64,000 nucleotides of DNA from the NCBI GenBank assembly GCA_016699425.1, contig CP064975.1, forward strand, positions 526,098-590,097, written 5' to 3'. Shown in pieces: positions 20,210 through 51,323 of the stretch; within the stretch, counting starts at the first letter, position 1, and the number at the start of each line of letters is the position of its first letter. The notes under the pieces were generated by a model. It ran no database searches and had not been told where the DNA came from. It saw only the letters and a program-made list of their open reading frames with translations. Origin of the DNA: Candidatus Moraniibacteriota bacterium. GTDB lineage: Bacteria; Patescibacteriota; Minisyncoccia; Moranbacterales; UBA1568. Made by a program: the position numbers and the translations under genes.

Positions 20210-20572
20210 CTGAGTCCTCCTCTGGTTGTGAGTCCGATAGTGTCGCCATGATCGGACAAATGGAAAATAACTATTCCGAACAGCGTAGCGCATGTCCAAC
20301 GCTTTAGCAAGAGTCAGACATGCCTCGCCCGTCAAACAACAGCGGGGTTGCACAGGGACCATGACCCCTCGCCAACTCTCCTAAGAGCCTCTCCCCATAG
20401 GTGCTTACCTACTGCGACCAGTCAGCTTCGGTCCCCAGCCCTTCAACCCTCGTCTCCCTATCATTGGATAGGCATCCTCGGGTTTCACGTCTGGTGACTC
20501 GAAGCTTACCGGCCTCGTGACGGAGACCCTATTGGGAATAGGCTCTAAGCTGATTCAGAACCTGTCGCACGG

Positions 20573-21337
20573 TCAACTCCCAGCGATCGTATCGCGCTCT
20601 CGGCAGTAGCGCTCGATCAGGGCCAATTGCTCCGGCGTATTGATCCCGAGTCCTTCGATCGGATCCTCGATCGTATAGACGGCGACCGTATGACCATCGT
20701 CACGAGCGAACTGGATCATATCAGTGAGATACAATTCATGCGCCGCATTATTATCATTTAACCGGTCGAGCGCGTCCCAGAGCCACGCAGCATCAAAACA
20801 ATAGTAGCTCGTATTCACTTCACGGATGGCGCGTTCGACCTCGGTCGCGTCCTTGTACTCGACGATACGGTCCACGGCCCCATCCGCACCGCGCACGATA
20901 CGACCGAAATGTGCGAACTGAGCATTGTCTCCGTCAAAGTCCGGGACGACCACACTCGCGAGCACGACCGTGGCGCCCGTTTCGGCGAGAGTCGAGAGCA
21001 TCCGTTCAAACGTCGCGGTCGAGATAAGCGGATGATCGCCTGGCGTCACGAGGACGCGCGTCACCCCCAATGTCTGCAGTGCCTCGCGGGCGCACCGGAC
21101 AGCGTGACCCGTCCCAAGTTGCTCGGCCTGGTGGACATAGCTAACCCGATCTCCGAGGGCGGCCATCACCTGCTCCCGGCCGTGACCAACGACGACCACC
21201 GGCTTCTCAACCAATGACCGCGTATTGCGCAGAATTTGCTCGATGATGGGTACTCCCTGCACCGGATGCAGCACCTTGGGGAGATCCGACCCCATCCGGG
21301 TTCCTTTGCCCGCCGCGAGTATGACGATTTGATTCAT
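20573..21337 (-). CDS. glmU: UDP-N-acetylglucosamine pyrophosphorylase (GlmU N-terminal uridyltransferase domain only; no left-handed beta-helix acetyltransferase domain)
   Basis: ILAAGKGTRMGSDLPKVLH, AEQLGTGHA, VEYKDATE and YLTD motifs are colinear with the E. coli GlmU N-domain. The ORF ends at the inter-domain linker. Confidence 0.8.
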   Translation of the reverse strand: MNQIVILAAGKGTRMGSDLPKVLHPVQGVPIIEQILRNTRSLVEKPVVVVGHGREQVMAALGDRVSYVHQAEQLGTGHAVRCAREALQTLGVTRVLVTPGDHPLISTATFERMLSTLAETGATVVLASVVVPDFDGDNAQFAHFGRIVRGADGAVDRIVEYKDATEVERAIREVNTSYYCFDAAWLWDALDRLNDNNAAHELYLTDMIQFARDDGHTVAVYTIEDPIEGLGINTPEQLALIERYCRERDTIAGS

Positions 21338-21339
21338 AG
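21285..21339. repeat. 55-bp perfect direct repeat (copy A) containing the glmU start codon and first 17 codons
   Basis: Identical to 22881..22935. Similarity continues in diverged form for ~25 bp more. Confidence 0.85.
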
Positions 21340-21439
21340 GTCTAGGGACGATCCTCCACTTTGATAACGAGTAAATACCCGAGTGCTCTCGTGAAACCAA
21401 TTTCTGCCCATCATACTGCCAATCCCCTGTAGGGTAAGA

Positions 21440-22153
21440 CTATCTATCAACACGAGACGAAACCGCTCGAGCTCGGAGGAGAAATACGGTTTCCGCTTTG
21501 AGCTGATTTTTCACAAATGCTTTTTGCTGCTCATCAATCAGCTCGCCCAGACCCGCGAGCAGTGCGGTCTCTGGGATACGCTCGATGAAACTGGCACACG
21601 TTTCAAGATACTCCGGGACTGAAACGATAGCGTATGCCTTGAGTACCGCAGCATCGATATCCCACCCCTGCTTCAGAAAAAAATATACATCAAACAGATC
21701 ACGAGCAGCAAATTTTTTCCGCTGTATCAGCGCTACAAGTTTCGCCGAGAGCATCGAAGTCTTCGTCATCACGAGCGCCGCTATCCCCAGATAACTTTTC
21801 ATCTCATAGGTCGCACCGATGTTCCGCGTGTTGATTTCCACCTTGATCTGATGCTCCCCTGTACTGTATGAAAGAGCGAAGAAGATGGTGGCGAACTTCT
21901 GCTGTTCGTCTTTGATCTCACCGTAGCGCTCGAGAATCTGGCGAATCTTTCGAAAAATCAGCTCCCGGTTTTCGTTCGAATCATCAAGCAGATCAAAATC
22001 AAGATCCACCGAGAAACGAGGCAGCTCATAGAAGAGGAGAGCGGCGGTACCACCTTTGAATCCCAAAAAGGACGAAATAGACACATCAGAATAAATGTCT
22101 TTTAAGATCTGCGTCATGATAAGCTTATGCTTGGCACTATCGAGGGTGGGCAT
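21440..22153 (-). CDS. AbiEii-type nucleotidyltransferase toxin (DUF1814-like), type IV TA system
   Basis: FLGFKGGTAALLFYELPRFSVDLDFDL…DLFDVYFF. Paralogous (~45% identity) to 29848..30543. The start is approximate. Confidence 0.7.
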   Translation of the reverse strand: MPTLDSAKHKLIMTQILKDIYSDVSISSFLGFKGGTAALLFYELPRFSVDLDFDLLDDSNENRELIFRKIRQILERYGEIKDEQQKFATIFFALSYSTGEHQIKVEINTRNIGATYEMKSYLGIAALVMTKTSMLSAKLVALIQRKKFAARDLFDVYFFLKQGWDIDAAVLKAYAIVSVPEYLETCASFIERIPETALLAGLGELIDEQQKAFVKNQLKAETVFLLRARAVSSRVDR

Positions 22154-22715
22154 ACTCTTGCATATATCTCTCCAAAACCTTTTCAAGTCTCTTACTCTTG
22201 TAGAGCGGTACGATCGTCTGACAACGTTTCCAGTCTATCCCACGGAGATTGTCGAAATAGTAATCCGGAAACAGATAGAGCCGATCGAGAAACGCCCGTT
22301 CCGGGATCGCCTCAGAGAAATATCCCCGATCCACTATCCCTGCCGGATTACCGAGAATGTCATCTCGCAGTTTTCGGTAGACGATTTTCTGACCAGCGAC
22401 CACGATCTCGCGAGAGAGATAGCTCGCAATAAAAATGGAATCATAGTACTGGAAGGTGACACCCGCACGAGCCAGGACGGTCTCGAAACTCACGTATGCC
22501 GGGGTGGAGATGCGCACCGCCAGTTCGCACCGATCGTATGTTGCATCCTTTGCAAAGACCCCTCGACGCAAACGGATGAGCTTCCCCGTCCTGACATAGT
22601 ACGCGAGCTTGGATTTGAGACTGTCCATCGACTTGGTACCACTGAGAAGAGCGATCTCTCGACTCGTGAAGACCGTTTGTTTGGACCCATAGAGAGCGAC
22701 GAGAAACCCGTCCAT
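22137..22715 (-). CDS. AbiEi-type antitoxin/transcriptional regulator
   Basis: N-terminal wHTH with TSREIALL…GKLIRLRRGVFA (the G.L.R…RGVY signature). It lies immediately upstream of and overlapping the AbiEii gene. Confidence 0.7.
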   Translation of the reverse strand: MDGFLVALYGSKQTVFTSREIALLSGTKSMDSLKSKLAYYVRTGKLIRLRRGVFAKDATYDRCELAVRISTPAYVSFETVLARAGVTFQYYDSIFIASYLSREIVVAGQKIVYRKLRDDILGNPAGIVDRGYFSEAIPERAFLDRLYLFPDYYFDNLRGIDWKRCQTIVPLYKSKRLEKVLERYMQEYAHPR

Positions 22716-22880
22716 AAGTATATAGCCTATAGGTAATAATTTTTCTTACCTTCAGTTTACTATAAACCTAGACATTGTCAAGCCCTCCCCACCGTCAAGC
22801 TACTCCCGCAGTACATACCAGCAATCACCACTCGCCAATACCCAAGCGTTCCCTTTCCCCGCCTCAGAACCTTGGGCGTC

Positions 22881-22935
22881 TCCGACCCCATCCGGGTTCC
22901 TTTGCCCGCCGCGAGTATGACGATTTGATTCATAG
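22881..22935. repeat. 55-bp perfect direct repeat (copy B): remnant duplicate of the glmU 5' end
   Basis: Encodes MNQIVILAAGKGTRMGS, then diverges (SETPKVLRRG versus SDLPKVLHPV) and stops. It is a decaying displaced copy. Confidence 0.8.
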
Positions 22936-23036
22936 ATTCAGCCGTTTCCGCTCAGTCAATCCTCGCTCAGTCCTCTCCCACAATACCGAAATCCTCCGCC
23001 GAACACAAACCCGTGTGGGTCCGGCGGAGGTTGGGG

Positions 23037-23921
23037 TTATTCTGTCGGGGTGGGCGCAGGTGGCGTAGTGACTGCATCAGGGGCCACCCCAGAACCCTGG
23101 GCTTCAGGCGATATCGGCGCTCCTTCGCTCGGTGTGGACGCTATGTTTGGGACTTCCGGCACGGTGACTGGATCGGTCGGAGGCGGAATCACGACGGCAG
23201 CGTCCGATGGTGTCGAGGGTATCTCGGGAGCTATTTCAGGAGCGATCTCAGGGATTGCCTCCGGCAGCAGCGGGACCGCAGTGTCTGATCCCCCGGTGAT
23301 CGCGTCTATTTCCGGTGCTTGTATCGGTGCCGCAGCACCAGTCGACACGAGGGTCAAATCCGAAAATATGTCCGCATCATTCCAACCGATTCCGGGCGCG
23401 GGATAGGGCGCCTGCCACGCGGTGAAAGGAAAGTGAAGTGAACAGGACAGTCCAGCTGCGAGCACTGTGTCCGTCGGCAGTGAAACGATGAAGAGCCACG
23501 GTTCAGTCTCCCCCGCCGAGAGCAAACTTCCATCCACGAAGCCGAATCCGGCGACATTCCCTGCATACTTGGTCGAGCCATCTCGGAGGGCTGACAGCTG
23601 CAGCGCATCACAAAGCGCTGCATCCCCAGTCGCAGAGACCGTCGAACGATACAGAAGGGCACTCGTCCCCTGATTCTTCACCAGACCACCAAAATTGACA
23701 CTCCCGCCAGACGGAAGCGCCGTGTCACCGGTCGGATTGGTCAGTGTGTCTTCGGTCGCCAGATCGATACTCCCCCCATGCAGGGTATTCCCCCCTGACT
23801 TGGCTTCACTGGTGAAGACTGACCAGGTATCATGCGTCACCACCACGGTGAACGCGAGACCGAGGAGCACAAACGCTCCCAGACGGATTCCTTTCTTGAT
23901 GCTTGGTTTTCGGGCTTCCAT
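23037..23921 (-). CDS. Secreted protein with a SipW-cognate-type signal peptide and a Pro/Ala/Thr-rich C-terminal tail (TapA-position gene of the locus)
   Basis: N-terminus KKGIRLGAFVLLGLAFTVVVTHDTWSVFTSEAKSGGNTLHGGSIDL. C-terminal PEIAPEIAPEIPSTPSD…TPPAPTPTE repeats. Confidence 0.65.
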   Translation of the reverse strand: MEARKPSIKKGIRLGAFVLLGLAFTVVVTHDTWSVFTSEAKSGGNTLHGGSIDLATEDTLTNPTGDTALPSGGSVNFGGLVKNQGTSALLYRSTVSATGDAALCDALQLSALRDGSTKYAGNVAGFGFVDGSLLSAGETEPWLFIVSLPTDTVLAAGLSCSLHFPFTAWQAPYPAPGIGWNDADIFSDLTLVSTGAAAPIQAPEIDAITGGSDTAVPLLPEAIPEIAPEIAPEIPSTPSDAAVVIPPPTDPVTVPEVPNIASTPSEGAPISPEAQGSGVAPDAVTTPPAPTPTE

Positions 23922-23935
23922 ACGCTCCTTGTAGA

Positions 23936-24591
23936 CTAGACAATTTTCCGCCTCCGAACCGGCACCGGTGGTGGTGTGAATACCGGTCGGGATGGTTGCG
24001 GGCGAGCATTGGTACGCGGATCCGAAAAGGTCAAACGACGCGTCATGACTTTTTCTTCGACGTTCACTTCTGAATGCTCGACAGATTTCTTCCGCGCGAG
24101 CCGCCGGACCTCTTGGACGATCGACCAGGCCTCGCTGAGGATGATCAGGACCGCGGGCAAGACAATGAGCCAGATGAAACCGGACTTGGTCTGCGCATAC
24201 GCGACTGGATAGCCGAGGTAAGGAATCGCGAAGTAAGTCTTGCCGACGATTTCTCGCGGTGTCACGGTCGTCGGATCCGACTCCTCATTAGCATCCCCCT
24301 TCGTCTGATACCGTAGTCCGGCCTCGGTGACCCGTTTGTCGACGATGCGGTGCGTGACGGACTGCTTGTCACTGGTCGCCACCGTCACGATGTCCCCACG
24401 CCATAGTCACTCGCCGCTCGAACCAGGATGAGGCTTCCCGTATGCAGCGTCGGTTCCATCGAACCCGAACGGACGACGAAGAGCTTCAGCATGTTCGGCA
24501 AGGGCAAGAAGGACGAAGCCATCACCAGGACGAAGACGATGACGACTCCCGCCATGACTCCCTGGAGGATGGTACCGAGTCGCTTCAGCAT
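23936..24591 (-). pseudogene. SipW-like type I signal peptidase (S26, archaeal/ER-type), split by a 1-nt frameshift at a G4 run
   Basis: Upstream ORF 24385..24591 carries SGSMEPT and ends …SDYGVGTS*. The next frame continues (G)DIVTV…VTHRIV…TKGDANEESD, the box C-E motifs. The shift is at + strand CCCC 24394-24397. Confidence 0.7.
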
Positions 24592-24606
24592 AGTGGACGG
24601 TGGAGA

Positions 24607-26064
24607 TTAGGGCGCGAACGGTGTCGGATTATTGCGAATCTGTTCGACTTCGAACGAGACGTCCGCCTTGAAGACATCCGTCTGCGCTTCATTGCCGGTA
24701 TCGACGGGCAGATCCCAACCAATACCGAAGTAGTACGTCGTCGAGCCGACCAGACGACCATCGGCGGCCAGCCCATTGCAGAGTCCGTAATTGGTGTGGC
24801 CATCAAGGACTGTACAGCTATGTGCACTGTATGCGGCTGCCAATCCCTGCCAGATATTGTGCGTTTCACTCGGCGTATTGATCTCTCCGGGTGTGACGAG
24901 CACCGGTTCGCCCTCCTGCTGGATATTGTCACCTTCGTCGACGTCGATGCCTTTGCCCTGGAAGCCAGGTGTCGCACCTTCATCCAACCAGATGAAAAAA
25001 TTCAGATTCGAGCGCAAATCCCCGAGACCGAGTCCAGGTACTTGGCAGACACCGGGGCCTTCGGCGACTATTTCGGAACTGGTGCAAGTATTGTCATCAT
25101 CCGCCGTCACCGTGACATTCATCCGGCCCCAAGCATCATTGTCATAAACATGGAGAGAAACCGTGTCTTCACCCACGTCTCCGGGCTTCACATCGGCAAA
25201 GTTGAAGAACTTGTGCGTCGGACCGAGGTCGGTAAGCGTCCAGGTACCATCACATGGCGTCCCGATCAGGTCACCACTGGCAGTCGCCGGACATGCGAGC
25301 TCGTGCACGTCGACCGCATCGAGGAAAGTCCCGAGCGAATTTTCTGTGCCGAGATCCGCGAATGAGATCTCAGTCGTGGCACCGGTCGCAAAGAAATCAT
25401 ACGTGTGTGGCGTCCAGGCGATTGCTCCCCCGCCCGCCGTGGACACTGTATCGAGCAGTACACCATTGGCCTTCACCTCTAGAACATTTTCACTCGCGGC
25501 CGTATTCGGTCGCGGTGAGTACTGGAATGAGAGCCGATACTTCTTGCCCGCAACCGTCGGGATAGACTGCTTGATGCGGATCGAGGCGGGTTCCCCGGTC
25601 TGCGGATCGCTCGGTCCTCCCCAGTCGCTATCGAGCTCCGTATACTGGTCTCCTTCAGCAGCAGCTCCGAGCACACCCTCATGGTATTCGATTTTGGCGA
25701 GCGCAGGTCGCCCACCACCGGATGTCACCCACTGTACATCCCAGGCCAAGCCGCCCGTACTATTGTCGAAGATCTGCCATTGATTCGGGTCCGTCACTTC
25801 GGGATTCTCGAACCCACCATTCGTAATCAGATTGCCACCTGTCGGCGTGCAGGTGCCCGGCAGCTGCCAGGTATTGCCATTTTCCCCCGGCGTACAGACG
25901 AGCCCATTGTAATGCGCTTCGCTGTCCACCTTCAGATCCAGCGCACCGGCGGTGAAGGTGTTGCCGACCGAGGTCTCGGTATCCGAGAAGAACGAATACG
26001 TCCCGCCCGCGACCGCCGCCACGGCGACGAGGATGATGAATGAACTTTTCGCGACTTTCCACAT
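24607..26064 (-). CDS. TasA/camelysin-like secreted protein with SipW-cognate signal peptide (paralog 1, 485 aa)
   Basis: MWKVAKSSFIILVAVAAVAGGTYSFFSDTETSVGNTFTAGALDLKVD. Shared motifs FFNFADVKPGDVGEDTVSLHV and DVSFEVEQIRNN. Confidence 0.75.
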   Translation of the reverse strand: MWKVAKSSFIILVAVAAVAGGTYSFFSDTETSVGNTFTAGALDLKVDSEAHYNGLVCTPGENGNTWQLPGTCTPTGGNLITNGGFENPEVTDPNQWQIFDNSTGGLAWDVQWVTSGGGRPALAKIEYHEGVLGAAAEGDQYTELDSDWGGPSDPQTGEPASIRIKQSIPTVAGKKYRLSFQYSPRPNTAASENVLEVKANGVLLDTVSTAGGGAIAWTPHTYDFFATGATTEISFADLGTENSLGTFLDAVDVHELACPATASGDLIGTPCDGTWTLTDLGPTHKFFNFADVKPGDVGEDTVSLHVYDNDAWGRMNVTVTADDDNTCTSSEIVAEGPGVCQVPGLGLGDLRSNLNFFIWLDEGATPGFQGKGIDVDEGDNIQQEGEPVLVTPGEINTPSETHNIWQGLAAAYSAHSCTVLDGHTNYGLCNGLAADGRLVGSTTYYFGIGWDLPVDTGNEAQTDVFKADVSFEVEQIRNNPTPFAP

Positions 26065-26131
26065 ACTCTTTCTTTACGGATTATTCTTTCTGTTGGAGAG
26101 GAGCCTTTGCTCCGATGCTTGGACTGGAGGG

Positions 26132-27457
26132 TTACGGCGTGACACCGGTCACACTGATATTGTCGATATAGGCATGATTGGAAGCGTTTTGTCCGGCCAT
26201 GGTGAAGCGGAACATCACGCTCGCCTTGTTGTCAGCCGCAGGCGAGAGGGAGAAGGTCTTGGTCGTCCAGGGGGTTTCGCCAGTAATGAACTCGAGGGTC
26301 GTCCAGGAACTCCCGCCATCGACTGAATATTCCACCTTCAACGTTTGCGGATCGACTGGCCCAGAGACATCATCCGTCTTGCGATCGTATTTCAGAGTGA
26401 TGTCGTGGTAGCCGAGCGTGCTGAAGCTCGGGGTCGTGAGATCCTCGTTGTGATTGTTCGCGTTGCTGCTGCCGTCGAGGTCGGCATTCTTGGTACACGC
26501 CTCGACTGAGTCGCTCTGACCACCCCGATGCTTCCACTTCTTGCGCCAGCAAGTGTTGTATCCCTGATCGCCCGGCTTGGAGCAGTCGCTGAAATCTTCG
26601 GCAAAGAGGGTCGAAGTCGTCGGCGGCGCAGGCGGTTCTTCGGTACTCCCACCACACTGGAAGGAATTGTTGCGCGCCTGCGCCACACTGAAGGAAACAT
26701 CCGCGGTGATTCCATCGCTCTGCACGATGTTTCCGACCGCCGCGCCATCACAGGCGAAGCCCGTCCCACGCACGAGCGGCCCATTGGTACTCCCTGCCAG
26801 TTTGCCTTTGCCATCCTGCGCTTTCGGTGTCGCCGCCAAGGTGCCGAAACACCAGGCCTTGCCGATATACTTGGTCACTTCCGGCACCAAAGGACCCGAT
26901 CCGCCCCAGATATTGTGACTGGCATCCGCGATCGGCCAATTGCTCCCATCAAAGATATCCTTCACCAGGCCTTGTTTGAAAATCGATTCGCCTGTCTCAT
27001 ACACATTGTCCCCATCGTCCGCCCAGAAAGAGAAGTACAAATGGTTCTGCAGTTCGCCATCATTCGTTCCAGTCGTCGGATCGACGGCGACTTCCGGCTC
27101 AGGCTGGCCGTTCTCGGGCGTCCCGGTCAAGTTGACCGCCATGCAGGTCCAGGCTTTGTTGTTCTTCACATGGAGCGATATAGTGTCTTCGCCGATGTCC
27201 CCTGGTTTCACGTCTAAAAAGTTGAAGAACAGTTTGCCCGCGAGCTTGCCCAATTGCCACGAGGTCGCCGGGCTGGCCACCAATTTCCCATCGTCATCGG
27301 TGACATAGGACTCATTGTCCACCTTCAGCTCGATCACACCCGAGGCGAACGTATTGCCCACCGACGATTCCTGATCGACGAAGAAAGAATATGTCCCGGC
27401 ACCGGCAGCCGCTGCTACCACGAGTACTGTGAAGAGTCCTTTGGTTATCTTCCACAT
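26132..27457 (-). CDS. TasA/camelysin-like secreted protein with SipW-cognate signal peptide (paralog 2, 441 aa)
   Basis: MWKITKGLFTVLVVAAAAGAGTYSFFVDQESSVGNTFASGVIELKVD. LFFNFLDVKPGDIGEDTISLHV. DVSFSVAQARNN. Confidence 0.75.
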   Translation of the reverse strand: MWKITKGLFTVLVVAAAAGAGTYSFFVDQESSVGNTFASGVIELKVDNESYVTDDDGKLVASPATSWQLGKLAGKLFFNFLDVKPGDIGEDTISLHVKNNKAWTCMAVNLTGTPENGQPEPEVAVDPTTGTNDGELQNHLYFSFWADDGDNVYETGESIFKQGLVKDIFDGSNWPIADASHNIWGGSGPLVPEVTKYIGKAWCFGTLAATPKAQDGKGKLAGSTNGPLVRGTGFACDGAAVGNIVQSDGITADVSFSVAQARNNSFQCGGSTEEPPAPPTTSTLFAEDFSDCSKPGDQGYNTCWRKKWKHRGGQSDSVEACTKNADLDGSSNANNHNEDLTTPSFSTLGYHDITLKYDRKTDDVSGPVDPQTLKVEYSVDGGSSWTTLEFITGETPWTTKTFSLSPAADNKASVMFRFTMAGQNASNHAYIDNISVTGVTP

Positions 27458-27537
27458 ATACGGCGACGTTATAAGTTATCGTGTTTTCCCTCCCTCGCAC
27501 CACCCAATTGGTGATGCGAAGTGAGGAAATCACGAGA

Positions 27538-29079
27538 CTAGTTCTCGAAGTCAGTTACTTCGCCGTCAAATTCAATCCAATCGACGAAACTGGTCTCACC
27601 AATCGGTCCAGGATGTCCGACGCGGACACCAAAGAATGAGTCAGTCGAGCGCGTTTCGGCATTTGGATAGTTGGCCAATACATCAGCCCACGTACGCGAA
27701 GTAGTACCAGGAGTTGTTCCGGTAATATCCACCAAACCCACTGGCCAGGTCGGACCAGAGTAGGTCCAATTACCCGCCAAGGCGTCTACCGTCGTCCAGG
27801 TATTCACAGCCACGCCGGTCGGCACCTGCACCAAGCGACGCTGCCACGTATCGCTGTTATTGAAGTCAACATTGAAGTGGAGGTAAGGCGTCTGTGAAGA
27901 AGCCGAGGCATCATAGATCCGATACTTCAAAGATCCGATGTCCGACAGTTTCACGTCCTTGTACTTGTAGGTCGCGATGTTGTAGCGGGGATTGCCGATG
28001 TTAGTTCCGATGTAGAGCGGATCGGTGCCGTTATCGAGCACAAAGCGTGCTGCACCAACAGTATCCGGACCAGCGACAATTTCATTTGCACCACCAGTAC
28101 CTGCAAACTGGTTTGTGGTCATGATGAACGCTGCGTCATTCGAATCATTGTGAAAGAGCCAGCTGTTCGGAGCGGCGATGAGCTCCGGAAGGCTCTCGGC
28201 CAAGTCGCCCTGGCGCACGACACGTGAACAGGAGAAATTCGGATTATTGCGCGCCTGCTCCACTCGGAAGGCAACATTCGCCACAAGCGAGTCTGTCTGA
28301 GCGACATTGCCCATGGTCGAGCCATCACAAGTAATGACACCAGCTGCAGCCGTCATATTGCCTGCACACCAGGCGAGACCAATATAGCTCGTACTGCCAC
28401 CAGCGAGTGCGCCAGTCCCAGCATCTGCCAGCCGATATGTCCGGCCGCCGAGCACATCGCTCGCAGAACCGACACCATTCGAGAAGAGCGGCAACTCATT
28501 GGCTTGCCAAATATTGTCTCCCTCAGCAGTATCAACATTTGACCCCTGAAGACCCGGCGTCGTACCCGTGTCTGCCCATGCGAAGAAGTTCAGGTTCTGC
28601 GCGAGCTCGCCATCGAAGTTATTGCCCGCGTTCTCGACCGCGTCCCCGGCGTCCGTCTCCGGATCAACTGTACTGACATCATCATTCTTCGTGATATCGA
28701 TATCCACACACGCGAAGGCATCATTGGAATCGACATGAAGCGAGATGGTATCCTCACCACTATCTCCCGGTTTCACATCAGCAAAGTTGAAAAACTTTTG
28801 TGCACCGAGGTTGGTCGCTGCCCATGTACCGTCACACGCACTCCCGATAACCGGGTACTGAGGGACAGTAGCTGTTGCGCTTGGTTCAAGCTGCCACAAG
28901 CCCGCAACACAGACGGCATTGTTATAGTGCTGCTGACTATCGACGGTTAGGTCAATCGCGCCGGCGGTGAAGGTATTGCCGGTCGATGTCTCGGTATCCG
29001 AAAAGAACGAGTAGGTCGCACCACCCACGGCGACGGCCACCGCGAGCGCCACGAGGCCACTCTTCCAAATCTTTTGCAT
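27538..29079 (-). CDS. TasA/camelysin-like secreted protein with SipW-cognate signal peptide (paralog 3, 513 aa)
   Basis: Start set at MQKIWKSGLVALAVAVAVGGATYSFFSDTETSTGNTFTAGAIDL. KFFNFADVKPGDSGEDTISLHV. NVAFRVEQARNNP. The tracked ORF extends to 29196. Confidence 0.75.
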   Translation of the reverse strand: MQKIWKSGLVALAVAVAVGGATYSFFSDTETSTGNTFTAGAIDLTVDSQQHYNNAVCVAGLWQLEPSATATVPQYPVIGSACDGTWAATNLGAQKFFNFADVKPGDSGEDTISLHVDSNDAFACVDIDITKNDDVSTVDPETDAGDAVENAGNNFDGELAQNLNFFAWADTGTTPGLQGSNVDTAEGDNIWQANELPLFSNGVGSASDVLGGRTYRLADAGTGALAGGSTSYIGLAWCAGNMTAAAGVITCDGSTMGNVAQTDSLVANVAFRVEQARNNPNFSCSRVVRQGDLAESLPELIAAPNSWLFHNDSNDAAFIMTTNQFAGTGGANEIVAGPDTVGAARFVLDNGTDPLYIGTNIGNPRYNIATYKYKDVKLSDIGSLKYRIYDASASSQTPYLHFNVDFNNSDTWQRRLVQVPTGVAVNTWTTVDALAGNWTYSGPTWPVGLVDITGTTPGTTSRTWADVLANYPNAETRSTDSFFGVRVGHPGPIGETSFVDWIEFDGEVTDFEN

Positions 29080-29500
29080 AGGTTTGGTGTTATGGTTTAT
29101 GCTGCTCCGCTCGATCCCGGCCTCCGCTGCACATCGACCCATCCGCTGCTCCAGTACAGTACCGAAAGCCAGAGGATCCACGCAGTTCTCTCGCACAGCT
29201 TCCGGAGTAACCCGAAATCGGCTCGAGAGAATGAGGGAACGGAATTTGAGAGAAGCAGATTTCGCTATTTATGACTTCGACGACTCGCACTCGACCTGTG
29301 CTTTGATGTTGCAATTGATAAACGACAAGCGCCCTCCTCGCTCCTATCGTTGCTTTTTTATTTTTTTTCTTCTCCTCGAAAGTTTTGTCGAGTTGAGAAA
29401 TATGTTTGCCCTCCCACAAACACTCATTGTTTCAACAATAGAGCCGATTGAAAATAAGTCAAGCAAATAAAAAATTTTCAGAACCAAACAATGTGCGACA

Positions 29501-29545
29501 AACAAAAAATGCGGAGACGCCAGACGTACTAGCCTCTCCGCAAAA
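29501..29545 (-). terminator. Intrinsic terminator (minus strand) downstream of the AbiEii gene. It is the left copy of a ~90-bp diverged direct repeat.
   Basis: Minus strand: GCGGAGAGGCTAGTACGTCTGGCGTCTCCGC followed by ATTTTTTGTTT. Confidence 0.6.
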
Positions 29546-29847
29546 CGGCCTTGTGTCCTCAGGGAGGGAGGACGTGCACTCGGCCGAAGTCAGAAAGTTG
29601 AGAGTGAGGGCATCTAGGAGAGTGCTCATTCCAACACATCCCGACGGGACCGAGGTTTCGGTTCCCATTTTTCGGGATACTGGTCAAACGGTCGATACAC
29701 CGTGAACCTCACCGGTTCAGGTTCAGGCGTGGCCTCGCTCCAGAGAAATTCTGTACTCAGGTCCACCGGAAAACCACAACGTTACAATCACCACCGCTAT
29801 GGTAATCTCACACGCACGCTCTGCAATACGGGAAAATTTTCGGAATA

Positions 29848-30543
29848 TCATTTCTCACTCTCTCCCAGAGTTCTCAACAAGAATATTGTCTCGGTTCGTA
29901 ACTTTGCGCGTGCCCAATCTTTCTGTGATTCCGTCAGTAATTCCCCGAGTCCATCGAGAACATGCCGATCACTCATTTTCTCTAACTGTTCCACACACAG
30001 CGCCACAAGTCCTGCAAATGACATGCCCGAACGAGATTCAACAATCGCCTTATTAATCGGCCAATGATTTTTCGCAAAGAAATAGACATCAAATATATCT
30101 CGACTCGTTTTACCAACACGTTCATACATCGCCATCAATTTATGCGCAAACATATCTTCTTGTGCCATGACCAGCAGTGAGATACCCAGTATCGTTTTTA
30201 CCTCATACCGGGAACCGAAATTTCTGCGATTGACCTCAATCTTGATATGCTGAGACTGTTTGTTGTATGAAATCACGGAAATGAGATTGAAACGCTTGTT
30301 TCGAGAATCAATCATCACCCCATAATTTCTGGCAATAGTGTTTATTCCCTCGAACACTGACTGTTCTTTAGTTTCATCCAAAAGATCGAAGTCCAAATCG
30401 ACTGAATGACGATTCAATCCATAGAATAACAAAGCGGCTGTACCGCCCTTAAAGCCGAGGAATGGAGCCAGTGTTGTATCGGAGTAAATGTCTTTTAAAA
30501 TCTGTAACAATATACTCCTGTGCTTCGAATAGTCCAATGTCAT
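29848..30543 (-). CDS. AbiEii-type nucleotidyltransferase toxin (second, AT-richer copy)
   Basis: FLGFKGGTAALLFYGLNRHSVDLDFDL…DIFDVYFF. 4-nt ATGA overlap with the upstream AbiEi gene. Confidence 0.75.
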   Translation of the reverse strand: MTLDYSKHRSILLQILKDIYSDTTLAPFLGFKGGTAALLFYGLNRHSVDLDFDLLDETKEQSVFEGINTIARNYGVMIDSRNKRFNLISVISYNKQSQHIKIEVNRRNFGSRYEVKTILGISLLVMAQEDMFAHKLMAMYERVGKTSRDIFDVYFFAKNHWPINKAIVESRSGMSFAGLVALCVEQLEKMSDRHVLDGLGELLTESQKDWARAKLRTETIFLLRTLGESEK

Positions 30544-31166
30544 ACGTTTCCTCGATAATGCTCGAAATATTGTTGTACTTTTTTCTCCATTTGTTTGTTA
30601 TGATATATTGGCAAAATTTCAAATACTTTGTCCCAGTCCAATACGTCCAAATGATCGAAATGATAGTCTTTGCTCACACAAACTCGATCCAGAAAAGCGC
30701 GCTCTTTCGTCGCGACGGAGTACCCTTCCGAATGATTGATACCAGCTGGGTTGCTCAAAATATCTGTTTTCATCCGCACAAAAGAAATTTTTTGTCTATC
30801 GACGACCAGTTCTCTCGAGACATATGACGCGACAAAAATATTCCCATAATACTGAAAATTCACTCCAGTACGAGTCAATACGGTCTCGAAGCTGATGTAG
30901 GATGGGGTATATATCCGAGTCGCCAACTCAAAACGATTATACTCTCTGTCCTTCGCATAGACACCACGATGGATGCGGACCAACTTTCCCGCCTTCGCAT
31001 ATTTACTCAATCGAACACACAGTGCATTTTCTGCTGCTTCACCCCACAACAAAGCAATATCTCTCGTGGTAAAGACCGTTTTCGGAGAGCGAAGCAATGC
31101 TTCCAGGTATTCCCCTTTTTCTGGCTTTCTATTCATATATGCACTGTATATTACCTTAAAACTCAC
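30540..31166 (-). CDS. AbiEi-type antitoxin (second copy)
   Basis: TTRDIALLWGE…GKLVRIHRGVYA. Confidence 0.75.
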   Translation of the reverse strand: MSFKVIYSAYMNRKPEKGEYLEALLRSPKTVFTTRDIALLWGEAAENALCVRLSKYAKAGKLVRIHRGVYAKDREYNRFELATRIYTPSYISFETVLTRTGVNFQYYGNIFVASYVSRELVVDRQKISFVRMKTDILSNPAGINHSEGYSVATKERAFLDRVCVSKDYHFDHLDVLDWDKVFEILPIYHNKQMEKKVQQYFEHYRGNV

Positions 31167-31511
31167 TTGCAGTTCAATTATACACTAATATGGTAGTATT
31201 TGCAAGTGAAATAGTTCCTCGTTCACTATTGGTCTTTCATAAAGAAATCTTTTCCTTTTCTATCATGCAACGGAGGTAGTCTCCCGCACACGAGCGTGGA
31301 TATGGGAAAGTTTTCGGAAGTTTATAATAGGATCGTTTGCCATTGGTGACTTTTCTGCGATTGCGAGAGCTTCGCACCCCGCTATAGCCCAGATACCCGA
31401 GACACGATGCGAGCGTCAGTCCCGAAATAATGAGTCCGACAGAGAACCAGCGCTGTGGCGTGGACTCGATAGTCAATTTGATGTTGTATCAGCCATCGTC
31501 ATCTGTGGCTA

Positions 31512-31553
31512 GAAAAAAAGCGGAGACGCCAGGCGTACTGGCTTCTCCGCAAA
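31512..31553 (-). terminator. Intrinsic terminator (minus strand) after the Fic operon. It is the right copy of the diverged direct repeat.
   Basis: Minus strand: GCGGAGAAGCCAGTACGCCTGGCGTCTCCGC followed by TTTTTTT. ~90% identical to the 29501..29545 element. Confidence 0.6.
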
Positions 31554-31631
31554 ACGGACCAATAGTCCCAGGAGCAGGACGTGTTGGCCGAGGTCAGACT
31601 GTGGTGTCCAGCGGAAGGCGGCTCAGGTGAA

Positions 31632-32081: not shown

Positions 32082-32957
32082 CTACTCACAACCGATCTTC
32101 CACACTCCCTTTTCGCGAAAAGCAGGGATATTTTGACGCCGTGCGGCATTCGATACCGCCGAAACCGATTTCCCCTGCTGCTTCGCATACACAGCGAGTG
32201 AGACGATCGGTTTCCCTTGCAAGTACGTGATCCGTTTATGAAGCGACTCTATCAACGCGAGCGAGAGCACCTTTTCCATCGTCTTCGTAATCTTTCGATC
32301 ACGGTAATCAGCGAACGCCTGATAATACATATCCTTTTCCTTGTCTCGAATGATAATAATCGGAAAGCCGAGACGCAGGAGCTGATAGGAGATGAGCACC
32401 CGACCGATCCGCCCGTTACCATCACAGAAAGGATGGATATTCTCGAAATCCAGATGGAAGCGAGCGATCTGGTCCAGAAAATAGGCACTCTGGTTGCTGC
32501 CCCGTTCTGTGATGAGCGACGCGACGAGCGACTGGACATGCTCGGGGGCTGGGGCGACATGTGTCCCCACACGGACATATTCCCCCCTCGTACGGAACCG
32601 GCCAGCGATGTCATCACGAATCCCGCCGATAAGCATCTGGTGCAAGAGGAGCATCAGGTCTTCATCCACTTCCTTCGCCTGCGATTTCTCACGGATGTAA
32701 TTGACAACCCGGGCCAAATTTTTTGCCTCAAATACTTCCCGGACCGAAACATCGCGCGAAACAGCAACATCGAGCAGGATTTTTTCGGTCTCCCGAAGAG
32801 TAAGCGTTGAATTCTCGATCGCATTCGAATTATAGACACTCTCTGGAATTTCCGCCTCATCCAATAAAATAAGGAGCGATTCCTTCCCCTTCTTGAGCGT
32901 ATCAAACTCTCGCTTGAGCGATTGGATGCGATCACGGATCGGCTTCGTTGTAGCCAT
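32082..32957 (-). CDS. Fic-family protein (AMPylase/Doc-like)
   Basis: Canonical Fic motif HPFCDGNGRIGR. Confidence 0.85.
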   Translation of the reverse strand: MATTKPIRDRIQSLKREFDTLKKGKESLLILLDEAEIPESVYNSNAIENSTLTLRETEKILLDVAVSRDVSVREVFEAKNLARVVNYIREKSQAKEVDEDLMLLLHQMLIGGIRDDIAGRFRTRGEYVRVGTHVAPAPEHVQSLVASLITERGSNQSAYFLDQIARFHLDFENIHPFCDGNGRIGRVLISYQLLRLGFPIIIIRDKEKDMYYQAFADYRDRKITKTMEKVLSLALIESLHKRITYLQGKPIVSLAVYAKQQGKSVSAVSNAARRQNIPAFREKGVWKIGCE

Positions 32958-47973: not shown

Positions 47974-49337
47974 TCAATAGACCGTGATGGGACTACTCAC
48001 CGTGCAATTGTTGGCTTCATTTGACTCTGTGACCGCACTTTGATAATCAGCGCAACCCTTGAAGTAGTACGTGCCACGGGCACTGATCTTCATGCCGCCA
48101 TCGTACTGCTCGCGTTCTTCACAACCGATGCAGAGTTTGGAAGCCTCGGTCCCATCATCGGTAATGTACGTCCAGGTACCGCCCGTGCCCGGACCCATGA
48201 ACCAGTACGAGCTCCGGATTGCTGCTGGTGAGGGAGCGGTGCCGACGTTTTTCACGTACATCGCTGGATAGAACTTGCTCCCCGCCTTGATCGACGCTGA
48301 CCCACCCGCTGGACCAACCGCTCTCACGATGAAGTCGGGTTGGGGTGGTGGTTTGGGCGCCAACGTCACCGTCAGGCTGGCTGAGTTGTTGGTCTCATCT
48401 GTTTCCGGTTGTGTTCCCTGGTAGTCGGTGAAAAAAGAGAGGGTGCAGGTTCCGACCACATTCGGCAATTGAACCGGGGTGAGGGTCTCTTCCCAAGCAC
48501 TCGCACCAGCCGTGAGGCTGCTGGCCATGGTGCCATCGTCAGTGAGCAGTATGTTCGATCCCCCATTGCAGGAAACCGTGTAGGCACTGCGGATGTCAGC
48601 TGTGGCATTGACCGTGCCTTGATTGGTGATGGTGGCGCCGAGACGGACGAAGTCGCCAGCGTAGGTAGGGGCTTGGAGGAGGGTGAAGCCGCTCGGGGTG
48701 AGGTCGACATCGGGGACGTTGACTGTCCCTTCGACGACTTCAATCACTGCTTCGGTACTGCAGTTGTTGGACTCGTGCTTTTCGTCGTGCTCGCCGCCGT
48801 TGTTGTGATCGTCCTGGGGATGATCGATACAGGCGACAATATTGTAAATGCCGGGTTCCGTGATCCACTCCCGGATGACCGTATTCTTGGTCTCGGTGTG
48901 GGTATCGCCCGGTTTCAGGTTGTCGCACTGAGTCGTCGTACTGTCGAGCCTCCGCCAAGCACCGTCTCCTGAGTGGGGATCCTCCTTGTAGCCCCGGGAG
49001 AGGTAGAAGTGACTGGTGATGGTGGTGGGTTCGCCGTCCTTGATGGGACAGGTACCTTCTCCGATGTTTTCAAACTGGGCTTTGGTGTTGAAGGATTCGT
49101 TCAGGCCATACTTGTACGTCTCCGTGCCCCAGGGGGTGGTGAGCCAGGTGCGTTTGGTGATGAAATCGGGGGGGACGAGGGTGGGTGGCGCTACGCTTTG
49201 GATGGGATAGCCCTGCCCCGTACCGTAGACGGCTTTCGACGCGTTCCCGGCGACGACCGTACCCGTGTAGACATTGATGGTGTTGATGGTCCAATTCGTG
49301 CTCATCGCTTGCGCAATTTCCTGAGCACTGGCTGTCT
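47974..49337 (-). pseudogene. C-terminal ~450-aa beta-rich domain of an IS-disrupted secreted M23-peptidase fusion gene
   Basis: The tracked ORF 47974..49305 (MSTNWTINT…) has no signal peptide and no RBS. Its frame is open upstream through 49328 and joins in-frame, across IS copy 1, with the M23 segment (…GETA-S-AQEIAQA-MSTNW…). Confidence 0.7.
49329..49337. repeat. 9-bp target-site duplication TGGCTGTCT (left) of IS copy 1
   Basis: An identical 9-mer sits at 50541..50549, immediately outside the inverted repeats. Confidence 0.8.
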
Positions 49338-50540: not shown

Positions 50541-51323
50541 TGGCTGTCTCCCCCAACATCTTGTGGATGAATCGCATGAAGTTCCACCAGAGACTGCCCT
50601 CCGGGAGTACTTCACCCGGATCTTCAGCTGCAGCTACGGCATTGAACATGGGATGAAGGTCATCACAGATCTCTCTTCCAACTTCGAACATCCACGGGAT
50701 ACCCGCTCGAACGACTGGATCTGATAGGCCCTTGTACCACATCGTCGCAGTTTCACATGCGACAGTCTTGGGCGACCAACACACATGACCCTGACAGGCA
50801 ACCTGCTTTTCTGTTGAGGGATTGAAGGCGAAGTGCGTTTGGATGAAGGCGACTGGGTTGGTGAAAGTGTTGGTGCAAGTACTATTTCCCTCGCACGGAG
50901 TCCTCCATTCTGAGTTTGCCATCATGCCCCAACCACTTTTCGCCATAGTGCGAAACGGTCCGTCATGAATGGCGAAATGCAAATGATCACCATAATCCCA
51001 GTGACCAATCTTTCCGATCGACACACCACCTTCTACTTCGGCGTACTTAGCTGGAAGGCTGCTACACTTGAGATGACCATACACAGCAGAAAACACCATG
51101 CTTTCGGTAGTTCTGTGCTCGATAACCAGGGCACAATTACCTACACCCCACTTTTTACCATCACCATCATCGTAGCTAATGTAGACTACTTTCCCATCCG
51201 CAATGGCATATGCATCTTTTCCAAGACCATGCATCATATCAACACCAACGTGGTAGAAGCCAGCAAAGTAGCTACCATATTTCGGTGCCCCGCCAGCTAA
51301 CCAACCTGCCCCAGGCTGAAAAT
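50541..51323 (-). pseudogene. Central M23 metallopeptidase segment of the IS-disrupted fusion gene, lying between the two IS copies
   Basis: HxxxD (YHVGVD) and HxH (GDHLHFAIHDG) M23 motifs. The tracked ORF 50518..51237 reads through the target duplication into the IS inverted repeat before stopping. Confidence 0.75.
51315..51323. repeat. 9-bp target-site duplication GCTGAAAAT (left) of IS copy 2
   Basis: An identical 9-mer sits at 52526..52534. Confidence 0.8.

What the first reader, a model, noticed from the sequence alone, without database searches (positions are those of the whole stretch)
21285..22935. AbiEi/AbiEii TA cassette inserted at the 5' end of glmU, bounded by a 55-bp perfect direct repeat that duplicates the glmU start
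The 55-mer at 21285..21339 (the glmU start codon plus 17 codons, including AAGKGTRMG) recurs perfectly at 22881..22935, 1596 bp away. The distal copy then continues as a diverged, stop-containing relic of the glmU N-terminus (SETPKVLRRG versus SDLPKVLHPV). The only genes in between are the AbiEi antitoxin and AbiEii toxin. This is the signature of an integrated cassette that brought a replacement 5' gene end and left the displaced original to decay. No integrase is present.
Basis: seen in the sequence. Interest (0 to 1): 0.6.

Follow-up and report, generated by a model that had tools for sequence, protein, structure and literature searches.

The report
Integrase-less AbiE islet rebuilding glmU start
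A 1.5-kb toxin-antitoxin (AbiE) cassette with no mobility gene sits just inside the start of a cell-wall precursor gene in a Moranbacteria genome, a 71-base duplication keeps that gene intact, and near-identical copies in diverged relatives suggest it spreads by ordinary homologous recombination.

Summary
The 55-mer (21285-21339 = 22881-22935) is a perfect direct repeat 1,596 bp apart, part of a 71-73-nt duplication of glmU positions -2/-4 to +69. Between the copies lies a ~1,523-bp, lower-GC insert with only abiEi and abiEii, their promoter and a 98-nt spacer. Relatives with 94% and 84% identical GlmU-N have a single uninterrupted gene start (empty site), and 0 of 24 other glmU loci show the duplication. 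The same cassette (about 99% nt, AbiEi 100% aa) occurs on 17 contigs from at least 9 samples, at the same junction. Flanks there differ: glmU about 90% identical in the one copy with a readable right flank, upstream DNA unalignable in three. The distal copies are mosaics with switch points at different positions. No recombinase, terminal repeats or conserved ends were found. My reading: an integrase-less TA islet made once by an insertion-duplication event, now exchanged among related Moranbacteria by homologous recombination using the duplicated glmU segment and glmU as arms. The distal copy keeps the native promoter side, but its diverged tail is foreign, not in-place decay, and a cassette-borne replacement 5' end is not shown. 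A second AbiE pair here, and two homologous cassettes elsewhere, are also flanked by duplicated local sequence.

The parts
22938..23037 (-). Native glmU upstream (promoter-side) region, now in front of the distal copy
   Evidence: Collinear similarity to the glmU upstream regions of the empty-site relatives L019/L024, including a shared TTTCGGTAT(G/T)GT box (alignment). Identical in same-species contigs L034 and L049-L051.
22865..22937 (-). Distal copy (relic) of glmU -4..+69. It contains the perfect 55-mer 22881-22935 and a 16-nt variant tail 22865-22880
   Evidence: The head is identical to the proximal copy. The tail has 5 mismatches in 16 nt and is shared with cassette copies in other hosts. 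It opens a 51-codon chimeric ORF that is broken by stops or a frameshift in L027, L036 and L041, so it is not conserved.
21342..22864 (-). The insert (~1,523 nt): left non-coding end, abiE promoter, abiEi, abiEii and spacer
   Evidence: The left junction CTG|AGGCGG is defined by L035/L041, whose relic is native-like to nt 69. The right junction ...CCCTAG|ACCTATG is defined by the native ACCTATG of L019/L024. Lower GC. About 99% identical in 9 other contigs.
22754..22781 (-). Promoter-like site TTGACA-16 nt-TAAACT in front of abiEi, followed by an AGGTAA-N9-TTACCT inverted repeat (candidate AbiEi operator)
   Evidence: 10 of 12 consensus matches. The ~30 nt just downstream is the only non-coding stretch shared with the 70%-identical cassettes L028, L029, L042, L043 and L048. 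The operator role is inferred.
22137..22715 (-). abiEi (192 aa), antitoxin / transcriptional regulator
   Evidence: PADLOC AbiEi 2.5e-56 over the full length. Pfam AbiEi_4 scores 24.2 bits, just under the 25-bit cut-off. The exact protein is on 17 contigs.
21440..22153 (-). abiEii (237 aa), DUF1814 nucleotidyltransferase toxin, overlapping abiEi by 17 nt
   Evidence: Pfam PF08843 5.5e-19 and PADLOC 8.7e-69. KGGTA...SVDLDFDL is invariant in the family alignment A3.
21342..21439 (-). Cassette-borne spacer that now forms the region directly upstream of the intact glmU. The patch 21353-21414 exists as two alleles
   Evidence: Present in all cassette copies with a right flank. It is unrelated to the native upstream of L019/L024. 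Type 1 (window, L035, L036, L037) and type 2 (L027, L038) are 66% identical in the patch. No terminator or promoter was predicted here.
21269..21341 (-). Proximal copy of glmU -4..+69, part of the intact gene
   Evidence: Continues at 91% identity into the L019 glmU along the whole gene.
20573..21337 (-). Intact glmU-N gene (254 aa, sugar-1-phosphate uridyltransferase half of GlmU)
   Evidence: Pfam NTP_transf_3 5.6e-24. NCBIfam GlmU models match over positions 2-240 only. Orthologues are 94% and 84% identical.
29504..31598 (-). Second, diverged AbiE unit: abiEi-2 30540-31166, abiEii-2 29848-30543 and a 79-aa ORF. It is flanked by a duplicated terminator-like hairpin (29504-29548/94 and 31513-31557/98)
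   Evidence: The 45-nt repeat is 91% identical (92 nt at 79%), spaced 2,009 bp apart, and has only these two copies in 64 kb.

Best explanation
This is a small genomic islet with no mobility gene of its own. It consists of an abiEi-abiEii type IV toxin-antitoxin / abortive-infection operon with its own promoter and a 98-nt trailing spacer, about 1,523 bp in all. It lies after codon 23 of the GlmU-N gene of a Candidatus Moranbacteria (Patescibacteria) genome. Shown: the insertion comes with a 71-73-nt duplication of glmU -2/-4..+69. One copy stays with the native promoter region as a dead stub. The other, behind the cassette's spacer, heads an intact gene. Shown: the same cassette sits at the same junction in several diverged host backgrounds, while close relatives have an empty site. 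Inferred: the duplication arose once through an insertion-duplication event. The likeliest route is a Campbell-type single crossover of a circular DNA carrying a glmU 5' fragment, or an unequal exchange between sister chromosomes. Inferred: since then the cassette has been passed between related strains and species by host homologous recombination after DNA uptake. The stub acts as the left homology arm and glmU as the right arm, which produces chimeric stubs with different switch points. Inferred: glmU is now transcribed by read-through from the native and/or abiE promoter. Toxin-antitoxin addiction would oppose loss of the islet by recombination between the two copies.
For: Anatomy and junctions. 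Foreign composition. Empty sites: L019-L023 (GlmU-N 94% aa) and L024-L026 (84%) have a single glmU head and no AbiE. None of 24 other glmU loci has a duplicated head. Horizontal exchange: the exact AbiEi protein is on 17 contigs from at least 9 samples. The cassette is 97-100% identical in all nine readable copies. In L035 the adjacent glmU is only 90% identical, and the upstream DNA of L027, L035 and L041 cannot be aligned to the window. Recombination rather than a fixed site: the stub switches from host-type to cassette-type sequence near nt 30 in L036, between nt 48 and 54 in the window, L034 and L037-L040, and at nt 69 in L035/L041. L040 combines an L019-type head with the cassette-type tail. 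Two spacer alleles occur with both upstream types. The window's copies show 0/55 versus 5/16 mismatches (p = 3e-4). L027's stub has 21 nt differences but only 7 aa changes, against 12.5 +/- 1.6 expected for random decay, so it diverged as a working gene in another lineage. No element-borne machinery: only two genes, no terminal inverted repeats and no conserved ends, no Rfam hit, and no recombinase among 46 window ORFs. No terminator is predicted between abiEii and glmU.
Against: The event that first created the duplication was not observed, and nothing here shows a circular intermediate. Intragenomic gene conversion between the two copies could blur an originally fixed crossover point, so the variable switch points do not strictly exclude a site-specific origin. 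All extra copies except L034 are short-read metagenome contigs. Adjacent variants in the stub are phased by 31-mers, but combinations across the 1.4-kb conserved core (upstream type with spacer type) could be assembly chimeras. The contrast between cassette and glmU identity rests on one contig (L035), and its glmU carries an apparent 2-nt indel. An old, vertically inherited insertion with recent allele replacement of the cassette would give the same pattern as new acquisition. Competence and RecA were not examined in this genome.
Confidence: 0.6

Rival explanations
1. It is a decayed site-specific integrative element (CIME-like). An element with a tyrosine or serine integrase that targets the 5' end of glmU integrated here, so the 71-73-nt repeats are attL and attR. 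The integrase and the rest of the element were later deleted, and the addictive TA pair survived. Any current mobility depends on an integrase supplied in trans.
For: The architecture matches attL-cargo-attR with a restored target gene and an element-borne upstream region, as in dusA-specific elements (PMC8409611). CIMEs are defined as att-flanked elements that have lost their integrase (PMC5704250). L028 shows three AbiE cassettes in tandem, each separated by the same repeat, which resembles accretion at an att site. The same junction (CTG|AGGCGG) is used in every copy.
Against: No integrase is present in the cassette or among 46 ORFs of the window. No full-length element or duplicated head was found at 24 other glmU loci. 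The host-to-cassette switch points in the stub vary (nt ~30, 48-54, 69) instead of falling in one core. The repeats flanking the other AbiE units are unrelated sequences (a terminator, intergenic DNA), so a single site-specific enzyme cannot explain them all.
Confidence: 0.2
2. One reading: the cassette carries its own replacement glmU 5' end, which is fused to the gene on insertion, and the displaced original 5' end is left upstream to decay in place.
For: The distal copy does sit behind the native upstream region. The spacer plus the first ~20-30 nt of the proximal head are identical in L027, L037 and L038. Some distal copies carry stops or a frameshift (L027, L036, L041).
Against: In L035 the proximal head carries host-type variants (ATGC..., GGTACACGG, TCAGA) rather than a constant cassette head. 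The diverged tail of the window's distal copy is shared between hosts and is separated from 55 perfect bases by a sharp boundary (p = 3e-4), so it is imported, not decayed. L027's stub shows a purifying-selection pattern rather than random decay.
Confidence: 0.12
3. A local tandem duplication of the glmU start existed first, and the AbiE genes later landed between the two copies by unrelated illegitimate recombination.
For: It would explain why the insert has no conserved ends.
Against: None of 24 glmU loci, including relatives at 94% and 84% identity, has the duplication without the insert. Every cassette copy has it. The same coincidence would have to recur at the second AbiE unit, L028 and L043.
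Confidence: 0.05
4. It is an assembly artefact: the repeat and insert are a mis-join.
For: Short-read assemblies break at this repeat.
Against: The window's proteins match exactly those recorded on a 1,217,328-bp contig. An independent NCBI assembly (L034) reproduces 294-aa gene, native upstream, stub and cassette at 98.9% identity. L035 spans the stub, cassette, spacer and glmU in a single contig.
Confidence: 0.01

Closest known systems
dusA-specific integrative elements (for example IMEVchUSA3; Farrugia et al. 2015 as cited in PMC8409611)
   Same: They insert inside the 5' end of a conserved housekeeping gene, are flanked by direct repeats, and leave the gene functional because new upstream and 5' sequence lies next to it. 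[quoted passage not shown]
   Different: Those elements are 20-40 kb, encode IntdusA and an excision factor, and recombine at a defined core. This one is 1.5 kb with only a TA pair, no integrase and variable switch points, and the proximal head is host-type where it can be read.
CIMEs, cis-mobilizable elements of streptococcal ICE/IME systems (PMC5704250)
   Same: A short remnant bounded by two repeats that lacks integration and transfer genes.
   Different: CIME repeats are att sites of an identifiable integrase family, usually at the 3' ends of tRNA or protein genes. No cognate integrase or full-length element was found here.
e14 / phage 21 integration into icd of E. coli
   Same: Integration within a protein-coding gene, with a duplicated gene end that keeps the gene intact and leaves a partial pseudo-copy.
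   Different: That case involves the 3' end of the gene, a prophage-sized element and its own integrase.
Insertion-duplication (Campbell-type) integration of circular DNA by homologous recombination in transformable bacteria (from my own knowledge)
   Same: It produces exactly this topology: the homologous fragment is duplicated on both sides of the insert, and loss is possible by recombination between the copies.
   Different: It is known mainly as a laboratory tool. No natural circular donor carrying a glmU fragment has been seen here.
Minimal mobile elements of Neisseria (cassettes exchanged by recombination between conserved flanking genes; from my own knowledge)
   Same: Small cargo units without mobility genes that spread between strains through flanking homology after DNA uptake.
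   Different: Minimal mobile elements sit between two intact genes and have no target duplication. Here one homology arm is a 69-nt stub of the very gene that forms the other arm.
AbiE type IV toxin-antitoxin / abortive infection system (Lactococcus, Streptococcus agalactiae; papers listed)
   Same: The cargo is a two-gene operon with the antitoxin first and overlapping genes, an AbiEi regulator and a DUF1814 nucleotidyltransferase toxin.
   Different: Activity is untested here. The Patescibacteria subfamily is only HMM-level similar to the studied proteins.

Membership tests
AbiE type IV toxin-antitoxin system | AbiEii toxin of the DUF1814 nucleotidyltransferase family | tested here: met
   Pfam PF08843 at 69.5 bits (cut-off 22.5), E = 5.5e-19. 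PADLOC AbiEii 8.7e-69 over positions 3-224 of 231.
AbiE type IV toxin-antitoxin system | AbiEi antitoxin with an N-terminal winged-helix DNA-binding domain | tested here: met
   PADLOC AbiEi 2.5e-56 over positions 4-182 of 186. The Pfam AbiEi_4 domain alone scores 24.2 bits, just under its 25-bit cut-off.
AbiE type IV toxin-antitoxin system | Bicistronic operon, antitoxin first, genes overlapping | tested here: met
   abiEi runs 22715->22137 and abiEii 22153->21440, a 17-nt overlap on the same strand.
AbiE type IV toxin-antitoxin system | Nucleotidyltransferase motif (GG/GS ... DxD) | tested here: met
   KGGTA...R.SVDLDFDL is invariant across 15 family members (alignment A3). Reading this as the catalytic motif rests on my knowledge of the family.
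AbiE type IV toxin-antitoxin system | Toxicity neutralised by AbiEi, and phage abortive infection | not testable with these tools
   This needs expression experiments.
Site-specific integrative element or its remnant (IME / CIME) | Direct repeats (attL/attR) at both ends, one overlapping the target gene | tested here: met
   A 71-73-nt repeat at both ends, with the proximal copy forming the start of glmU.
Site-specific integrative element or its remnant (IME / CIME) | An integrase in the element, or a cognate integrase-bearing element at the same site in relatives | tested here: not met
   Only abiEi and abiEii lie in the insert. No recombinase domain was found in 46 window ORFs. None of 24 other glmU loci has an element or a duplicated head.
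Site-specific integrative element or its remnant (IME / CIME) | A single fixed crossover core | tested here: inconclusive
   Switch points in the stub lie near nt 30, at nt 48-54 and at nt 69 in different copies. This argues against a fixed core, but later gene conversion could have moved the boundaries.
Transposon / IS / MITE | Terminal inverted repeats, conserved ends, and a short target duplication of fixed length | tested here: not met
   The best alignment between the two ends is 6 nt. The ends are not shared with homologous cassettes. The duplications are 45-167 nt and vary in length.
Integron gene cassette | An attC-type imperfect palindrome at the cassette's 3' end, with an IntI integrase nearby | tested here: not met
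   No inverted repeat of 14 nt or more lies in 21340-21439 or 22716-22864, and no integrase is in the window. This is a weak test because no attC model was run.
Bifunctional GlmU | N-terminal uridyltransferase domain plus C-terminal left-handed beta-helix acetyltransferase domain (~450 aa) | tested here: not met
   The protein is 254 aa and matches GlmU models only over positions 2-240, with scores of 230 bits against cut-offs of 367-450. It is a uridyltransferase-half homologue, as in its relatives.

The most novel reading that the evidence does not exclude
AbiE operons of Patescibacteria could be a class of recombinase-less mobile cassettes whose insertion regularly duplicates 45-170 bp of the target, sometimes rebuilding a gene start or a terminator. 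That would imply a host-driven insertion-duplication route for defence genes that has not been described. Support: both AbiE units in this genome and two homologous cassettes elsewhere (L028, L043) are bracketed by duplicated local sequence, which is 4 of 9 evaluable contexts. Apart from an IS pair and paralogous coding sequences, these are the only direct-repeat pairs in the 64-kb window.
Probability: 0.2. Interest if true: 0.7.

Novelty: new variant of a known kind. Interest (0 to 1): 0.45.

Why it matters
Defence and toxin-antitoxin genes are known to move, but usually on elements that carry or borrow a dedicated recombinase. Here a bare AbiE operon sits inside the start of a cell-wall precursor gene without breaking it. 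It appears to travel between diverged Candidate Phyla Radiation bacteria using only a 69-nt stub of that gene as a homology arm. If this is general, it gives a simple route by which tiny, reduced genomes with few mobile elements can still exchange defence genes. It also explains why such cassettes assemble as orphan ~1.6-kb contigs. In addition, it places a probably essential gene downstream of an autoregulated toxin-antitoxin operon, a coupling that metatranscriptomes could test.

Tried and rejected
- Exact-protein look-ups of GlmU-N and of a 236-aa AbiEii reading found nothing, because the start codon choice differed and the sequences are not identical.
- The species-representative genome scan gave no relative closer than 50%.
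- A scan of metagenome contigs for the 55-mer with two degenerate positions returned nothing. That collection lacks even L019's sample.
- The AbiEii scan of the same collection gave only 7 loci, and the viral-contig scan only 2 distant ones.
- Looking for a same-species empty site through the 294-aa neighbour failed. L049-L051 stop 30 nt into the repeat, and P0246 was not on record.
- Searching with the chimeric 51-aa stub ORF found only L035's copy.
- Rfam found no RNA family in 20400-23200.
- No terminal inverted repeats or shared termini were found.
- An att-like fixed core was rejected because the switch points differ.
- The ~1,590-bp unit spacing common to the window, L028 and L043 looked meaningful at first. 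It is explained by similar gene lengths plus about 300 nt of non-coding DNA, so I draw nothing from it.
- The ~1.6-kb Logan contigs whose ends overlap by about 23 nt are not evidence for circles. They are what a 31-mer assembly graph gives at a 55-nt repeat.
- Literature searches found no description of repeat-flanked AbiE cassettes.
Full report
OBSERVATION. The 55-mer at 21285-21339 recurs exactly at 22881-22935, 1,596 bp away. About 1.6e-24 such pairs are expected by chance in 64 kb. Read on the minus strand, it covers 2 nt of leader plus the first 53 nt of a 254-aa gene (21337->20573). That gene is a homologue of the uridyltransferase half of GlmU only: Pfam NTP_transf_3, and NCBIfam GlmU models matched over positions 2-240 of ~450, below their cut-offs. 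Homology between the two copies continues to coding nt 69 (71 nt at 93%). Between the copies lie abiEi (22715->22137) and abiEii (22153->21440), which overlap by 17 nt. Pfam AbiEii gives 5.5e-19, and PADLOC gives AbiEi 2.5e-56 and AbiEii 8.7e-69. The interval has GC 0.45-0.52 against 0.55-0.65 on either side. The window's AbiEi, AbiEii and 294-aa neighbour match exactly proteins recorded on a 1,217,328-bp contig annotated as Candidatus Moranbacteria / Moraniibacteriota, locus tags IPJ68_02765-02770.

JUNCTIONS. Nine further contigs carrying the identical AbiEi protein (17 on record, at least 9 samples) allow the ends of the insert to be read off. In L035 and L041 the upstream glmU stub is native-like through ...CCCAAGGTGCTG (nt 69). 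Every copy then continues AGGCGGGGAAAGGG..., so the left junction is window 22865|22864. On the right, all copies end ...GTCCCTAG and are followed by ACCTATG, which is also the native sequence in front of glmU in the cassette-free relatives L019 and L024. The right junction is therefore about 21342|21341. The insert is about 1,523 nt and is flanked by a 71-73-nt duplication of glmU -2/-4..+69.

EMPTY SITES. GlmU-N orthologues at 94% (P0001; L019-L023) and 84% identity (P0002; L024-L026) have one uninterrupted gene start, no AbiE genes and no repeat. Downstream synteny with the window (small ORFs, a ribosome hibernation factor, SecA) is kept in L019. Upstream, L019 carries a different ~7-kb glycan-related block between the 294-aa gene and glmU. 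None of 24 glmU loci without the cassette has a second glmU head.

WHICH COPY IS WHICH. The 100 nt in front of the distal copy align collinearly with the native glmU upstream regions of L019/L024, including a TTTCGGTAT(G/T)GT box (z = 2.8-4.0 against shuffles). The 98-nt spacer in front of the proximal copy matches only other cassette copies. So the distal copy keeps the native promoter side, and the intact gene now sits behind cassette DNA. The distal copy is not simply the old 5' end decaying. Its first 55 nt are identical to the proximal copy, whereas the next 16 nt carry 5 mismatches (Fisher p = 3e-4). That variant tail, GACGCCCAAGGTTCTG, is shared by cassette copies in other backgrounds: L027, L034 and L038-L040 exactly, and L036, L037 and L039 with one further change. 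The tail therefore came in with the cassette.

HORIZONTAL EXCHANGE. Across all nine readable copies the cassette is 97-100% identical from AGGCGG to the end of the spacer. In L035, the one copy with a long right flank, the adjoining glmU is only 90% identical to the window and to L019. The DNA upstream of the stub in L027, L035 and L041 cannot be aligned with the window. A cassette much more conserved than its housekeeping neighbour means recent exchange between lineages.

MOSAIC STUBS. The stubs are chimeras. They are window-type to nt 53 and then cassette-type in the window, L034 and L037-L039. L040 has an L019-type head (GGTACACGG) followed by the cassette-type tail. L036 is window-type to about nt 30 and then a diverged stretch with a TAG. 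L027 has a wholly diverged head with the same TAG, and L035/L041 are native-like to nt 69. L027's head differs from the window's at 21 of 69 nt but at only 7 residues, against 12.5 +/- 1.6 expected for random substitutions (p about 0.002). It therefore diverged as a working gene in another lineage before being displaced. A 62-nt patch of the spacer exists as two alleles that are 66% identical, and both occur with window-type and other stub or upstream types. Different switch points are what homologous crossovers or gene conversion inside a short homology produce. A site-specific recombinase would give one fixed core.

NO MACHINERY. The insert has no third gene, no terminal inverted repeats and no ends shared with the 70%-identical cassettes of L028-L031, L042 and L043. 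Only about 30 nt at the promoter/operator are conserved. Rfam finds nothing. Pfam scans of 46 ORFs across the window show no tyrosine or serine recombinase. The only mobility-related genes are two truncated IS256-type transposase copies 28 kb away. A promoter-like TTGACA-16-TAAACT precedes abiEi, and no terminator or promoter is predicted in the spacer. It is therefore likely, though only inferred, that glmU is transcribed by read-through.

A WIDER PATTERN. The window has a second, diverged AbiE pair (31166->29848). It lies between two copies of a terminator-like hairpin: 45 nt at 91%, or 92 nt at 79%, spaced 2,009 bp apart, with only two copies in the window. In L028 the closest homologous cassette is flanked by a 167-nt repeat (88%) within a tandem array of three AbiE pairs separated by that repeat. 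In L043 a 124-nt intergenic repeat (96%) flanks the pair. Five other contexts with adequate flanks show no repeat. In the whole window the only same-strand repeat pairs that are not paralogous coding sequence are the two flanking the AbiE units and the IS pair. The repeated sequences are unrelated to each other, so this points to a generic insertion-duplication process rather than to one site-specific enzyme.

MECHANISM. Shown: an insert with a target duplication that preserves the gene, empty sites in relatives, the same cassette in diverged backgrounds, and mosaic boundaries. Inferred: (a) the duplication arose once, most simply by a Campbell-type single crossover of a circular DNA carrying a glmU 5' fragment or by unequal sister-chromosome exchange; (b) the cassette is now exchanged by host homologous recombination, with the stub pairing to a recipient's glmU head and glmU itself serving as the right arm; (c) recombination between the two copies would excise it precisely, and toxin-antitoxin addiction would select against that loss. 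The main rival is a decayed integrative element whose att site lay in the glmU 5' end, a CIME-like remnant.

[quoted passage not shown] CIMEs are att-flanked remnants without an integrase (PMC5704250). The present islet shares that architecture, but it lacks any integrase, cognate full-length element or fixed core. It resembles laboratory insertion-duplication constructs and recombination-exchanged cassettes such as the Neisseria minimal mobile elements (the last two from my own knowledge). Literature searches found no description of repeat-flanked AbiE cassettes, although AbiE is reported as one of the commonest defence families in groundwater bacteria.

CAVEATS. Most extra copies are short-read contigs. 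Neighbouring variants in the stub are linked by 31-mers, but long-range combinations across the conserved core may be chimeric. The contrast between cassette and flank identity rests mainly on L035, whose glmU shows an apparent 2-nt indel. Gene conversion could have moved the stub boundaries. The origin of the duplication and any circular form remain unobserved.

VERDICT. The feature is real and is more than a routine TA annotation. It is an integrase-less AbiE islet held in a gene-restoring duplication and exchanged by recombination among Moranbacteria. It is a new variant of known kinds of genomic islet. It also hints that AbiE cassettes in these bacteria insert with long target duplications as a rule, which is unproven.

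Noticed in passing
window 29504-31598 (minus strand): A second, diverged AbiEi/AbiEii pair plus a 79-aa ORF lies between two copies of a terminator-like hairpin (45 nt at 91%, spacing 2,009 bp). These are the only two copies in the window. The first copy lies about 75 nt after the stop of the 149-aa gene at 32081->31632.
   Followed up: partly
window 49337-50540 and 51323-52525: Two 1.2-kb copies (99.4% identical, same orientation, 1,986 bp apart) each encode a truncated Mutator/IS256-family transposase (~240 aa). They bracket a short Peptidase_M23-like ORF at 50518-51237.
   Followed up: no
window 32082-32957 (minus strand): A Fic-domain protein (Pfam Fic 5.9e-20; PADLOC SoFic / PDC-S04 models up to 1e-35) sits right next to the second AbiE unit, forming a small defence cluster just downstream of the murB-murC-murG-ftsW genes.
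   Followed up: no
window 23037-29196 (minus strand): A run of three paralogous secreted proteins sharing an N-terminal ...GGTYSFFSDTE(T/S)S.GNTF... signal region (485, 441 and 552 aa), with an S24/S26-type signal peptidase and a 294-aa protein. The cluster is conserved in L019, L034 and L049. It looks like a SipW/TasA-type secreted fibre cluster (faint Peptidase_M73 hits).
   Followed up: no
L019 1040-8000 compared with window 22938-23037: The closest relative has a ~7-kb block (GH81-like, a 672-aa protein, a GT2 cellulose-synthase-like protein and a 255-aa protein) exactly where the window has only 100 nt plus the cassette. L024 has yet other genes there. The region just upstream of glmU is a synteny breakpoint in this clade.
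   Followed up: partly
L028 1280-6909: Three different AbiE-type pairs lie in tandem, each separated by copies of the same 90-170-nt GC-rich, hairpin-containing repeat (R-C1-R-C2-R-C3-R), next to a PMT_2 glycosyltransferase and sugar epimerase genes. This looks like an accretion array of TA cassettes.
   Followed up: partly
L035 2217-2920: The glmU downstream of this cassette copy has an apparent 2-nt insertion about 170 nt into the coding sequence (GTGGTCTCGTCGTCGG versus GTGGTCGTCGTTGG), and the gene caller starts the gene after it. This is either a pseudogene or a short-read assembly error.
   Followed up: no
L035 250-390: Upstream of the stub in L035 lies a truncated homologue (MDQETSEAMKQLNEKIDRVETSVERTREYMLWSLIMQ...) of the 69-aa gene that lies downstream of glmU in the window (19871->19662). 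The local gene order is therefore rearranged in that host.
   Followed up: no
window 21353-21414: The cassette's spacer has two alleles of nearly equal length that are only 66% identical and are embedded in otherwise ~99-100% identical sequence (type 1: window, L035, L036, L037; type 2: L027, L038). The cause is unknown. It could be an older divergence preserved by recombination breakpoints, or a swapped regulatory leader for glmU.
   Followed up: partly
one search hit table: Many AbiEii homologues of this subfamily are recorded only on contigs of about 1.5-1.8 kb, roughly the size of one cassette. This would fit cassettes that are commonly bounded by repeats or by variable contexts that break assembly graphs.
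   Followed up: no
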